From a bacterium (lineage in GTDB: Bacteria > UBA8248 > JACPRG01 > G963555815), in contig CBDHDG010000007.1 in the NCBI GenBank assembly GCA_965261595.1, forward strand, positions 384,001-448,000: a stretch of 64,000 nt of DNA. The letters run 5' to 3'. Below are positions 39,381 to 41,153 of the stretch, one piece after another (the first letter of the stretch is position 1; every line of letters starts with the position of its first letter). The notes under the pieces were generated by a model that was not told where the DNA came from, searched no databases, and saw nothing but the letters and a program-made list of their open reading frames with translations. The position numbers and the translations under genes are program-made.

Positions 39381-39913
39381 CGGCTATACTGACTGGCCAA
39401 CTCCAGCATCCGGATCACCAGTTGTGCCTCTTCCTTGGGGAATCTGTCGGACTCTTCGCTGGGTGGATCTGGCCTGTCCCAACACGCGGCAGGCCCGACG
39501 CTCACAGACTCGCTCAGGCCCGAACCGCTCTCTGACCCATACCACGGATCCTCTCCGCTTCGCCGGCGCCTGGAAGTTTCCCGAGGAGACTTCCTTCAAA
39601 ATCTGGTTGTCCAGCGACAGGTCCGCCACCAGCTTCTTCAGCCGGCCATTCTCCTTGTCCAGCGACTTCAGACGCTTGGCCTGATCCATCCTCAGACCCC
39701 CGTACTCCTTCCTCCACCGGTAGTCGGTCTGCTCGGTTACCCCGACCGGCTTGCACACCTGGACCACCGTCTTCCCCTGGGACTGGGCCACTTCCGCCTC
39801 TCGCAGCTTGATGACGATCTGTTCCGCTGTAAACCGCTTCCTGGCCAGCCTTCCCCTCCTTCCGAAAATCCAGGAATACTCCTTTATCAACTGGACTCGT
39901 TTGAAGGGGGCAG

Positions 39914-41090
39914 CGACTGTCTTCGATGTTAAGCCACTATCGCACTGGGCTGCCATGGTTGCCCGGTTCGAACCATGGCATTGAGGATGACGAGCAACTT
40001 TCGCATGCATGCTACCAGGGCGACCTTCGGAGATTTTCCAGCTGACCTAAGGCGCTGGTAAAAACGGCGAATCACCACGTTCCTTCGCGTCGCCACCAAG
40101 GCCGCCAACTACAGGGCGCGACGGACTGTCGACCGACCTCCTCAAACACTTCGGCGACCCCGCAGGCTCCCACTGTCTCGATTGATGGGAGCTACTCCCA
40201 CCAGGCTGGCGACCTCCTTTCGGCAAAGGTGCCCCAACTCGGGAAGCTCAGCTATGAGGGTTCGGGAGACCACCTGGCCGATGCCCGGAACCGATCGCAG
40301 CAAATCTTCCTTCTCCCGCCAAATGGGACTGTTGCGGATGATTGTGGTCATTTGCACGTCCAGGTCCGCAAGGGCCTTCTGCAACCAATTGATGTGCGAC
40401 CGGACGCTCGCCCGAAGGGCCCTGTCCTGGGTCCGGCTCAGGCGGTTTTTCTCCGCTGTGATCATCCCGCCTAGCTGGCGCCGTCGGGCAATCAGCTCGG
40501 CCAGCAGACGGCTTAATGCATCGGTCACCGTCCGAACGGCCGGCTTCACCGCCTCGCCAAATCGTGCAATGACTGCGGCGTCAATGCGGTCCGTCTTGGC
40601 CAACCGACCCGTCGCCCGGGCAAAGTCCCGAATCTGCCGAGGATTCACCACCGCTACCGGAAGACCTGCGTTCGACAACGTGGCAGCAGCAAATACTTCC
40701 ACCTTCCCCGTGGCCTCCAAAACCACAACCCCCACAGGCAGGCTCTTGAGCCGGCCCATCAGGTCCTCCAGACCCGCTAGGTCATGACCGAAAGACCAGA
40801 CCTCTCCACAGGGCAACACGTGTACATCCAGACGACTTTTGCAGACATCAATTCCCACGTAGACTGGCTCAGACTTCATCTCCCAAACCCTTCCTTTTAC
40901 ATTCGGGCTCACCATGGCCCAGGCGACTGTTCGGGTTGCGGAGACACAAGAGCGGGGAGCCCAGCTGCCCCACGGTCTCAACCGACCCAGGTCACGACGG
41001 TCTCCCGCCCCCTTCTCATCCCCACAGACTTCAAGGACCTAGATACCGAAGACAGCCTACCCCTTCCTACCAACTCAGAAACAAGATAAA
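39914..41090 (-). mobile_element. IS110-family element (transposase pseudogene 39929-40879, two in-frame stops)
   Basis: GIDV, LEATG, KTDRIDA, RDSG; CT core on both sides; long 5' non-coding end. Confidence 0.85.
40880..41075 (-). ncRNA. Putative bridge RNA
   Basis: Two internal loops carry TGACCTG/GGGGCAG (target) and ACAGTCGC/TAAAAG (donor) matches. Confidence 0.75.
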
Positions 41091-41153
41091 AGGTCAGGGT
41101 AGCTTTATTCACAGGGGATTGTAAAAGCTATGACACCGGATTAGGCTGGTGTC

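What the first reader, a model, noticed from the sequence alone, without database searches (positions are those of the whole stretch)
39906..41096. IS110 bridge RNA apparently programmed against an IS3/IS407 terminal inverted repeat
Removing the element at its CT core restores TGACCTGCCCCC, identical to the IR at 37292. Its 5' non-coding end (minus strand) has, in bridge-RNA order, TGACCTG (40994-40988) and GGGGCAG (40971-40965) around a GGTC/GACC stem, matching the two target strands. These are followed by ACAGTCGC (40930-40923) and TAAAAG (40899-40894) around a GGGC/GCCC stem, matching its own ends. The circle junction forms TTAACA-17-TATCTT. The left match stops exactly at the IS boundary. 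Bridge RNAs are established; the notable point is a guide aimed at another transposon's end, which would disable it. The recombinase has two nonsense codons.
Basis: partly seen in the sequence, partly recalled or inferred. Interest (0 to 1): 0.8.

Follow-up and report, generated by a model that had tools for sequence, protein, structure and literature searches.

The report
RNA-guided jumping gene aimed at transposon ends
A dead copy of an RNA-guided insertion sequence (IS110 type) sits inside the end of another transposon (IS3/IS407 type), and its guide RNA spells out exactly that end; this is a clean natural example of a known kind of behaviour.

Summary
Window 39912-41092 (minus strand) is an IS110-group element. 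It has CT cores at both junctions, a 211-nt 5' leader and a DEDD recombinase broken by two nonsense codons. It splits the left inverted repeat of an IS3/IS407-like element into TGAC|CT and CT|GCCCCC.

The leader matches a covariance model built from 53 homologues without it (87.3 bits, E 3e-16). The shared fold has 4 helices, and 20 of 26 pairs show compensatory change. All four guide segments lie in internal loops. Across 51 homologues, guides match their own flanks (6.0 and 6.6 of 7) far better than other elements' flanks (3.6 and 3.5).

A scan for the same guide pair found 27 loci in other genomes. Of 26 readable left flanks, 24 end in TGAC-CT. Of 13 readable right flanks, 12 begin GCCCCC. 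Several lie beside IS3 transposase genes. These elements occupy at least 4 separate places in the recombinase tree.

The kind is already known: IS4321/IS5075 target Tn21 repeats, IS1383 targets IS1384 repeats, and ISEc21 targets IS3 transposase genes. This is a new member, possibly with convergent retargeting. That the insertion disables the IS3 is inferred, not shown.

The parts
39912..41092 (-). IS110-group insertion sequence, bounded by a CT core at each end (CT 41092-41091 and CT 39913-39912). One CT belongs to the target.
   Evidence: Sequence read. The boundaries agree with the conserved ends of 80 homologues, CT+TGTATCTTG on the left and ACAGTTG+CT on the right. It is the only full copy in the genome.
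40885..41017 (-). Bridge RNA core: the target-binding loop and the donor-binding loop with their four helices.
   Evidence: The covariance model R1, built without this sequence, gives 87.3 bits and E 3.4e-16 over the full model length, and this is its only hit in the window.
40988..40994 (-). Left target guide TGACCTG. It has the same sense as the target's left half plus the core.
   Evidence: It matches the left flank TGAC+CT at 6 of 7 positions in the family register. The seventh position lies outside the IS3.
40965..40971 (-). Right target guide GGGGCAG, the complement of CT+GCCCC.
   Evidence: 7 of 7 positions match.
40923..40930 (-). Left donor guide ACAGTCGC, identical to the element's right end plus the C of the core.
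   Evidence: 8 of 8. Variants of this guide covary with the right end across the family; 41 of 54 loci match 8 of 8.
40894..40899 (-). Right donor guide TAAAAG, the complement of CT+TTTA at the left end.
   Evidence: The family has left end CTTGTA with guide GCAAG. This element has CTTTTA with AAAAG, a change on both sides.
39929..40879 (-). Recombinase gene of 316 codons, with nonsense codons at 246 (TGA 40144-40142) and 257 (TAG 40111-40109).
   Evidence: Translation. Pfam PF01548 and PF02371. Comparison with the intact P0001. Contigs of two other runs (X5, X7) carry other letters at 40142 and 40109 that, as I read them, remove both stops.
39927..39932 (-). -35-like TTAACA in the right end. 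In the excised circle it would sit 17 nt from TATCTT (41088-41083).
   Evidence: Read from the sequence. The family has TTGACA and TATCTT at the same places. That it acts as a promoter is inferred.
39906..39911 (-). GCCCCC: the inner part of the interrupted left inverted repeat of the host IS3/IS407-like element.
41093..41096 (-). TGAC: the severed tip of the host element's left inverted repeat.
   Evidence: The 16 bases beyond it (41097-41112) lie before an IS1595-type element.
37292..39911 (-). Host IS3/IS407-like element. Its right repeat TGACCTGCCCCC is at 37292. orfA lies at 39387-39860. orfB lies at about 37329-38089 and is itself split by a second IS110-family element at about 38028-39392.
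   Evidence: Pfam HTH_Tnp_1, HTH_21, rve and rve_3. Related copies are and the junctions.

Best explanation
This is a decayed copy of an IS110-group insertion sequence, the RNA-guided 'bridge recombinase' type.

Its 5' non-coding left end encodes a bridge RNA with two internal loops. The donor loop reads the element's own joined ends, ACAGTCG-CT-TTTA. The target loop reads TGAC-CT-GCCCC, which is the first 11 bases of the terminal inverted repeat of IS3/IS407-type elements.

The inferred life cycle is as follows. The element excises as a circle, and the joined ends create a promoter (TTAACA, 17 nt, TATCTT) that drives the RNA and the recombinase. The RNA bridges the circle junction and the IS3 repeat tip. 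Strands are exchanged at the CT core, so the element ends up flanked by CT on both sides, six bases inside the IS3 repeat.

This copy did exactly that in the left repeat of one IS3 copy. It then lost its recombinase to two nonsense mutations, so it is now immobile unless a relative supplies the enzyme.

The specificity belongs to lineages, not to an accident of this copy. Elements with the same guide pair in other phyla sit in the same 11-mer.

Shown here: the anatomy, the RNA fold, the agreement of guides with flanks and ends, recurrence of the same target, and the broken gene. Inferred: the circle, the promoter, RNA expression, strand exchange, and any harm to the IS3.
For: Protein: the recombinase has the DEDD and Transposase_20 domains.

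Junctions: there are CT cores at both ends, and removing the element restores the IS3 repeat.

RNA:
- The model R1, built from 53 homologues without the window, hits 40885-41017 at 87.3 bits and E 3.4e-16.
- On 55 sequences, 4 helices hold 26 pairs and 97.1% of cells are paired. Twenty of 26 pairs show a change on both sides. No shuffle out of 500 reached any of the five measures, and slid controls give 34-49% pairing.
- The guides lie in unpaired loops.

Guides against flanks:
- Over 51 loci, the match to the element's own flank averages 6.02 of 7 (left) and 6.57 of 7 (right). Over 2550 cross pairings it averages 3.60 and 3.47. The window scores 6 and 7.
- The left donor guide equals the right end in 41 of 54 loci at 8 of 8, with covarying variants.
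- The window's unusual left end CTTTTA is matched by its unusual right donor guide TAAAAG.

Same guides, same target:
- 27 loci carry the same guide pair. 24 of 26 readable left flanks are TGAC-CT and 12 of 13 readable right flanks are GCCCCC.
- IS3 transposase genes lie in 4 of 11 such right flanks, and one flank is a roughly 100-bp element with TGACCTGCCCCC...GGGGGCAGGTCA ends.

Other samples: contigs of runs X5 and X7 hold near-identical copies without the stops. Their matches end at 39906 and 41094-41097. One continues with the reverse complement of ACCAACGAGACCACCTG, the sequence that follows TGACCTGCCCCC at other IS3 ends of this genome.

Literature: IS407A repeats are TGACCTGCCCCCT (PMC2877748, Table 2 passage). 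ISPa32, an IS3-family element, has TGACCTGCCCCC (PMC7378034, table passage).
Against: - No RNA or activity data exist. No run listed as holding this stretch is on record as RNA.
- The leader's folding energy alone is no better than shuffles (z = 0.52).
- Rfam has no matching family (nothing relevant at E up to 1).
- One locus with the same guides, L308, sits at GCCAC-CT-GTCTAC, and one, L304, has CGAC instead of TGAC.
- Only 4 of 11 GCCCCC flanks in other genomes show an IS3 transposase gene in the 79-741 bases available. Three long flanks (L289, L296, L306) show none.
- The host IS3 copy has no target-site duplication: CCGC on one side and GGGT on the other. Its history therefore includes some rearrangement that I cannot reconstruct.
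- All 27 intact TGACCTGCCCCC sites in this genome are unoccupied. This fits a dead element but gives no sign of activity here.
Confidence: 0.9

Rival explanations
1. The mechanism is the same, but the target is a 'safe haven' and not a weapon. The IS3 repeat tip is simply an abundant, conserved, harmless and horizontally travelling 11-mer. On this view lineages settle on it for the same reason other IS110 elements settle on REP repeats, and damage to the IS3 is incidental.
For: - Relatives in the same family target short repeated sequences of other kinds. Several Chloroflexota and Thermodesulfobacteriota homologues use GTTCGYC-CT-GAGC...GTCGAAGG.
- This genome offers 27 intact copies of the 12-mer. 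From its size I estimate about 3 by chance; that estimate is my own arithmetic, not a call.
- REP targeting by IS110 elements is described in PMC11208160 (passages).
Against: Nothing here separates the two motives. Both predict the same sequences. Insertion six bases inside the repeat does separate the tip from the rest of the repeat, whatever the 'purpose'.
Confidence: 0.5
2. The match is a one-off. The element landed in the IS3 repeat by an off-target event or was brought next to it by recombination, and the similarity between guides and repeat is coincidental.
For: - The host IS3 lacks a target-site duplication, so some rearrangement has happened here.
- Off-target or rearranged cases exist, as L308 shows.
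Against: - The guides match at 6 of 7 and 7 of 7 positions in the family register.
- 24 of 26 and 12 of 13 flanks of elements with the same guides show the same target.
- Near-identical copies in other samples end at the same TGAC and GCCCCC.
Confidence: 0.03
3. The order of events was the reverse. The IS3 element transposed next to a pre-existing IS110 copy, and the TGAC on the far side is chance.
For: IS3-family elements insert with little sequence preference (general knowledge, not tested here).
Against: - An IS3 end cannot be split by its own insertion.
- Intact IS3 copies run GGGGGCAG+GTCA without a break, and here the GTCA lies 1.18 kb away, exactly at the other IS110 junction.
- The same split occurs in other genomes.
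Confidence: 0.01

Closest known systems
IS621 and other IS110-group bridge-RNA elements (Durrant et al. 2024, PMC11208160; Hiraizumi et al. 2024, PMC11208158)
   Same: - A DEDD recombinase with a C-terminal Transposase_20 domain.
- No terminal inverted repeats, and a CT core.
- A non-coding RNA in the left end with a target loop and a donor loop. Each loop reads one strand on the left and the other strand on the right.
- A promoter formed at the circle junction.
   Different: - The nearest named relative found is only about 54% identical (ISMno7-type).
- The target is the tip of IS3/IS407 repeats, not a REP element.
- The target guides cover 5+2 and 2+5 bases, and the register of the left guide varies by one base within the family.
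- This copy is dead.
[quoted passage not shown]
   Same: An IS110-family element whose specific target is the terminal inverted repeat of another transposon.
   Different: - These are IS1111-group elements, with sub-terminal inverted repeats and the guide RNA (seekRNA) downstream of the gene.
- Their target is a Tn3-family 38-bp repeat, not an IS3 repeat.
IS1383, which targets the inverted repeats of IS1384 (Muller, Lauf & Herrmann 2001; reference title only)
   Same: An IS110-family element that integrates specifically into the inverted repeats of another insertion sequence.
   Different: The host is different (Pseudomonas putida) and so is the target IS. I could not read the paper, so I cannot compare where in the repeat it inserts.
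ISEc21 (IS110 group, upstream non-coding region), which targets a conserved stretch inside IS3-family transposase genes (Siddiquee et al. 2024, PMC11187229, section 12 passage)
   Same: An IS110-group element with a 5' guide RNA whose natural target lies in IS3-family elements.
   Different: [quoted passage not shown]

Membership tests
IS110 family, IS110 group (bridge-RNA recombinase elements) | [quoted passage not shown] | tested here: met
   PF01548 at E 7.7e-22 and PF02371 at E 2.1e-08 on the 245 residues before the first stop. D11, E55, D97, D100 and S236 are present. Which catalytic role each residue plays is recalled, not tested.
IS110 family, IS110 group (bridge-RNA recombinase elements) | No terminal inverted repeats, and the same short core (CT) at both junctions. 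| tested here: met
   The same CT junctions appear in nearly all of the 80 homologous loci.
IS110 family, IS110 group (bridge-RNA recombinase elements) | A long non-coding end upstream of the recombinase that encodes a structured RNA with two internal loops. | tested here: met
   The leader is 211 nt, against 15 nt between the stop codon and the right-end core. The covariance model hit is, and the structure and covariation are.
IS110 family, IS110 group (bridge-RNA recombinase elements) | The target-loop guides match the flanking target. The left guide has the sense of the top strand and the right guide is its complement. | tested here: met
   the window scores 6 of 7 and 7 of 7. The family averages 6.02 and 6.57 on own flanks against 3.60 and 3.47 on other elements' flanks.
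IS110 family, IS110 group (bridge-RNA recombinase elements) | The donor-loop guides match the element's own ends. | tested here: met
   8 of 8 for the left donor guide. TAAAAG pairs with CTTTTA for the right donor guide.
IS110 family, IS110 group (bridge-RNA recombinase elements) | A promoter assembled across the circle junction. | tested here: inconclusive
   The hexamers and the 17-nt spacing can be read from the two ends and are conserved in the family. I ran no promoter scan on the joined sequence, and there are no expression data.
IS110 family, IS110 group (bridge-RNA recombinase elements) | An active recombinase, that is, an autonomous element. | tested here: not met
   There are two in-frame nonsense codons. 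This copy is a relic. Membership by descent is unaffected.
IS110 family, IS110 group (bridge-RNA recombinase elements) | RNA binding and RNA-guided recombination. | not testable with these tools
   This needs a bench assay.
IS1111 group (seekRNA downstream, sub-terminal inverted repeats) | A long non-coding region downstream of the recombinase, and sub-terminal inverted repeats of 7-17 bp. | tested here: not met
   The long non-coding region is upstream. The right end has only 15 nt after the stop codon. Sub-terminal repeats were not searched for specifically.
IS3 family, IS407-like (the host element) | Two overlapping reading frames (HTH orfA and DDE/rve orfB) and terminal repeats beginning TGACCTGCCCCC. 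| tested here: met
   Pfam HTH_Tnp_1, HTH_21, rve and rve_3. The repeat is seen. The IS407A repeats are given in PMC2877748. The 4-bp target duplication reported there is not present around this copy.

The most novel reading that the evidence does not exclude
Several separate IS110-group lineages, found in Nitrospirota, Nitrospinota, Chloroflexota and the window's own phylum, have independently tuned their bridge RNA target loops to the same invariant 11-base tip of IS3/IS407 inverted repeats. Together they would form a guild of RNA-guided 'hyperparasite' insertion sequences whose niche is the ends of another transposon family and whose insertion cuts the tip off the repeat.

The recombinase tree needs at least 4 changes of this guide state. 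It rejects a single clade (p-AU 0.0009, log-likelihood 91 lower). The caveat is that I named the group after seeing a first tree.

The RNA stems of each group resemble those of their own recombinase relatives, not those of the other groups. This favours retargeting in place over transfer of a whole left end.
Probability: 0.5. Interest if true: 0.5.

Novelty: new member of a known kind. Interest (0 to 1): 0.35.

Why it matters
- It gives a fully worked natural example in which all four guide segments of a bridge RNA can be read against their DNA partners, in a little-studied branch of the family. The nearest named element is about 54% identical.
- It shows that the conserved tip of IS3/IS407 repeats is a recurrent natural target of RNA-guided insertion sequences across phyla.
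- For mobile-DNA biology it adds IS3 ends to the list of transposon ends that IS110-family elements colonise, after Tn21 and IS1384. It also raises a testable question: does such insertion silence the host transposon?
- For tool builders, the family alignment supplies dozens of natural guide and target pairs, including the one-base register variation of the left guide.
- It does not change what is known about the mechanism.

Tried and rejected
- **Rfam scan of 36000-43000**. Nothing relevant was found. The only match was a chance lncRNA hit at E 0.39.
- **Single-sequence folding of the leader**. The z-score was 0.52, which is not informative for this GC-rich RNA.
- **Search of genome contigs with the single protein**. 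It gave only 1 locus. The alignment-based scan was needed.
- **Search of the window's own phylum**, 51 genomes. Only 1 other genome had a match at E 1e-40 or better.
- **Metagenome scan with P0001**. It returned 80 loci at 50-69% identity and none of the 79-97% relatives. I did not use these loci further.
- **Right-junction 16-mer scan**. The pattern was too short: only 6 of the first 80 fetched loci had a recombinase upstream. The longer guide-pair pattern replaced it.
- **RNA evidence**. No RNA holder is listed.
- **Empty site for the host IS3** near the IS1595 element. No informative empty site was found.
- **Plasmid collection, protein mode**. All 1294 records were under 60% identity, so no named close relative turned up.
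- **Literature searches** for an IS110-group element targeting IS3/IS407 repeats. None was found in the held library. ISfinder could not be consulted, and I did not open the supplements of PMC11187229 or PMC11208160, so a named element with this target may exist there.
- **Tree rows.** In the first tree, two rows (L287_T, L298_T) were wrong ORF picks on very long branches and were dropped. In one search I labelled P0014 as IS3-targeting without having seen its locus. It and the other rows of unknown context were left out of the test.
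Full report
**What is there.** On the minus strand of the window lies an insertion sequence without terminal inverted repeats.
- The left junction reads TGAC (41096-41093), CT (41092-41091), then the left end TTTATCTTG... from 41090.
- The right junction reads ...GAAGACAGTCG (to 39914), CT (39913-39912), then GCCCCCTTCAAACG....
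- Taking out the element and one CT gives TGACCTGCCCCC, the 12-mer that stands at 37292 as the other end of an IS3-type element.
- That host element has an HTH_Tnp_1 orfA (39387-39860) and an rve/rve_3 orfB.
- Related intact copies elsewhere in the genome align with the window up to 39913 and then continue GTCA. The break is therefore exactly behind the CT, six bases inside the left repeat.
- IS407A has the repeats TGACCTGCCCCCT / AGGGGGCAGGTCA (PMC2877748, Table 2 passage). ISPa32 of the IS3 family has TGACCTGCCCCC (PMC7378034, table passage).

**The inserted element.**
- Its gene (40879-39929) has the DEDD_Tnp_IS110 and Transposase_20 domains.
- Two in-frame nonsense codons interrupt it: TGA at 40144-40142 and TAG at 40111-40109.
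- A 97%-identical intact protein from a public metagenome, P0001, has W and Y at those positions.
- Contigs of two other sequencing runs (X5, X7) carry other letters at 40142 and 40109 that, as I read them, remove both stops. The run that holds the window's own sequence (X1) shows the window's letters.
- The genome holds this one full copy, a 67%-identical relative broken by another IS (L002), and three end fragments.

**The RNA.** A search of one genome per species with an alignment of 28 homologous proteins kept 80 of 521 related loci, at 52-60% identity.
- Their left ends start with CT+TGTATCTTG and their right ends finish ACAGTTG+CT.
- An alignment of 55 non-redundant leaders (A2) gives an RNAalifold consensus with four helices. 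These are a long outer stem and a hairpin framing one internal loop, and a second outer stem and hairpin framing a second internal loop.
- Counting pairs on that structure gives 26 pairs with 97.1% of cells paired, and 20 pairs show changes on both sides. No shuffle out of 500 reached any of the five measures. Sliding the partners by 1-3 columns drops pairing to 34-49%.
- A covariance model built from 53 leaders without the window and without L022, one of the homologues later found in an IS3 end (A3, R1), finds window 40885-41017 on the minus strand. The score is 87.3 bits with E 3.4e-16 over the full model, and it is the only hit in the 64-kb window.
- Rfam has no such family. The folding energy of the single sequence is unremarkable.

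**Guides.**
- Flanks could be read on both sides for 51 of the 55 loci. L013, L070, L080 and L083 were dropped for short or mis-called flanks.
- In these 51, the 5' side of the first loop repeats the five bases left of the element plus the core. The 3' side is the complement of the core plus five bases on the right.
- Own-flank matches average 6.02 of 7 and 6.57 of 7. Over 2550 pairings of one element's guides with another's flanks they average 3.60 and 3.47.
- The window scores 6 of 7 (GTGACCT against cTGACCT; the mismatch is the base outside the IS3) and 7 of 7 (GGGGCAG against CTGCCCC).
- The register of the left guide differs by one base among family members. The window uses the commoner one.
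- In the second loop the left donor guide equals the right end plus C in 41 of 54 loci. Variants such as ACAGTCGC, ACGGTTGC, ACAGGTGC and ACAGCTGC are each mirrored in the right end.
- The window's unusual left end CTTTTA is paired with an unusual right donor guide TAAAAG, where the family has CTTGTA with GCAAG.
- Reading one strand on one side and the other strand on the other side is the layout described for IS621 (PMC11208160, Discussion passage).

**Does the same guide pair go with the same target elsewhere?** I scanned the species-representative genomes for the target loop with both guides fixed, using the pattern TGACC, 2-3 bases, GGTY, 5-7 bases, GACCGTGGGGCAGC. This gave 27 loci.
- The left flank could be read in 26. 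Of these, 24 end TGAC-CT, one has CGAC (L304) and one has CCAC (L308).
- The right junction could be read in 13; the rest are truncated or at contig ends. Of these, 12 begin GCCCCC, and L308 is the exception with GTCTAC.
- L290 and L300 share both flanks and count as one event. The outer flanks of the others differ, so they are separate insertions. They include three sites in one Chloroflexota genome and four in one Nitrospirota genome.
- I compared 11 GCCCCC flanks (79-741 bases each) with IS3 proteins of the window's genome. Four contain IS3-family transposase genes (L288, L291, L302, L312), and in three of these the gene points towards the junction, so the other repeat was hit. One (L311) is a roughly 100-bp element ending GGGGGCAGGTCA. 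Three are too short to judge, and three long ones show nothing.
- In other samples, near-identical copies stop matching the window at 39906 and 41094-41097. One continues with the reverse complement of ACCAACGAGACCACCTG, which follows TGACCTGCCCCC at other IS3 ends of this genome.

**How it most likely works.** By analogy with IS621, the element excises as a circle.
- The joined ends place TTAACA 17 nt from TATCTT (the family has TTGACA and TATCTT), which would drive the RNA and the recombinase.
- The donor loop holds the junction ACAGTCG-CT-TTTA and the target loop holds TGAC-CT-GCCCC.
- Strand exchange at CT integrates the element.
- All of this is inferred from sequence. Nothing here shows RNA, a circle or catalysis.
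- This copy is a relic. Its truncated product would keep the DEDD residues and the conserved serine but lack the last 70 or so residues.
- All 27 intact TGACCTGCCCCC sites in the genome are unoccupied.
- That the insertion disables the IS3 end is plausible, because the cleaved tip is moved 1.18 kb away from the rest of the repeat, but it was not tested.
- An equally good evolutionary reading is that the repeat tip is simply an abundant, conserved and harmless landing pad.

**Phylogeny.** On a recombinase tree, the elements with this guide pair fall in four places separated by well-supported branches from elements with other targets:
- the window's clade;
- the Lucifugimonas pair;
- five Dehalococcoidia elements;
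- a Nitrospirota group nested among elements that target GTAGC-CT-GTCCC.

With rows of unknown context removed, the state needs 4 changes, and a tree holding the 12 rows together is rejected (log-likelihood 91 lower, p-AU 0.0009). The group was defined after I had seen a tree, which weakens the test. The RNA stems of each group look like those of their recombinase relatives, which suggests retargeting in place.

**Comparison with what is known.**
- The element is a member of the IS110 group by every sequence feature tested, except that it is dead. It is not of the IS1111 type, because its long non-coding region is upstream.
- Targeting the ends of other transposons is documented for IS4321/IS5075 (Tn21 repeats) and IS1383 (IS1384 repeats). 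I saw both only as reference titles, plus a passage on the IS4321 target logo.
- ISEc21, an IS110-group element with an upstream RNA, targets a conserved coding stretch of IS3-family transposase genes (PMC11187229, section 12 passage).
- Four full-text searches found no report of an IS110-group element aimed at the IS3/IS407 repeat tip. I could not consult ISfinder or the papers' supplements.
The general theme has therefore been met before on other DNA.

**Verdict.** This is a new member of a known kind, of moderate interest. The possibly convergent focus of several lineages on one transposon tip is the part worth following up.

Noticed in passing
window 38028-39392 (+ strand): A second IS110-family element is nested in orfB of the same IS3 copy. 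Its 334-codon recombinase (38110-39114) is intact, and it has about 280 nt of non-coding sequence downstream, an IS1111-like layout. The same left junction and the first ~160 bp of this element occur in two other IS3 copies (C7 near 943.3 kb and C6 near 1052.8 kb), where it is cut off by yet another IS. This may be a second case of IS-in-IS targeting.
   Followed up: partly
window 41113-42015 (+ strand): An IS1595-family element with a zinc-ribbon and an ISXO2-like DDE domain, split here into two reading frames (41154-41753 and 41761-42009). One search lists 19 further matches at 94-99% identity in the genome, two of them pieces of one interrupted copy. It starts 16 bases from the severed TGAC tip.
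   Followed up: partly
window 37282-37291 and 41097-41106: The host IS3 copy has no target-site duplication: ...CCGC on one side and GGGT... on the other. A 4-bp duplication is reported for IS407A. Its present flanks therefore probably result from a later rearrangement.
   Followed up: partly
G000 C5:290705-294741 (L002): A 67%-identical relative in the same genome has different guides (ACCGGCCCC and CGTAG) and correspondingly different flanks (GACCGGCCC-CT ... CT-ACGCCGG). It is itself interrupted by an IS3-like element near its 3' end. It shows retargeting between relatives within one genome.
   Followed up: partly
G000 C6:1577006-1577169 (L003): A 158-bp left-end fragment, 88% identical to the window's element. 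It has the same left guide, a diverged right guide (GGTGTAG), the flank CTACTGAC, and TT where the CT core should be.
   Followed up: no
L308 (Nitrospiraceae MAG): This element has the IS3-tip guide pair but sits between GCCAC-CT and CT-GTCTAC. It is either an off-target insertion or a change of guides after insertion.
   Followed up: no
L017, L020, L041, L043, L075, L081, L082: Several Chloroflexota and Thermodesulfobacteriota homologues share a target of the form GTTCGYC-CT-GAGC...GTCGAAGG. It looks like a widespread REP-like repeat.
   Followed up: no
window 42855-43268 and G000 C5 (inside L002): The same orfA-like reading frame (MNEQKQEGALAEG...) appears in the window downstream of the IS1595 element and inside the interrupted relative L002. 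This points to another multi-copy IS in this IS-rich region.
   Followed up: no
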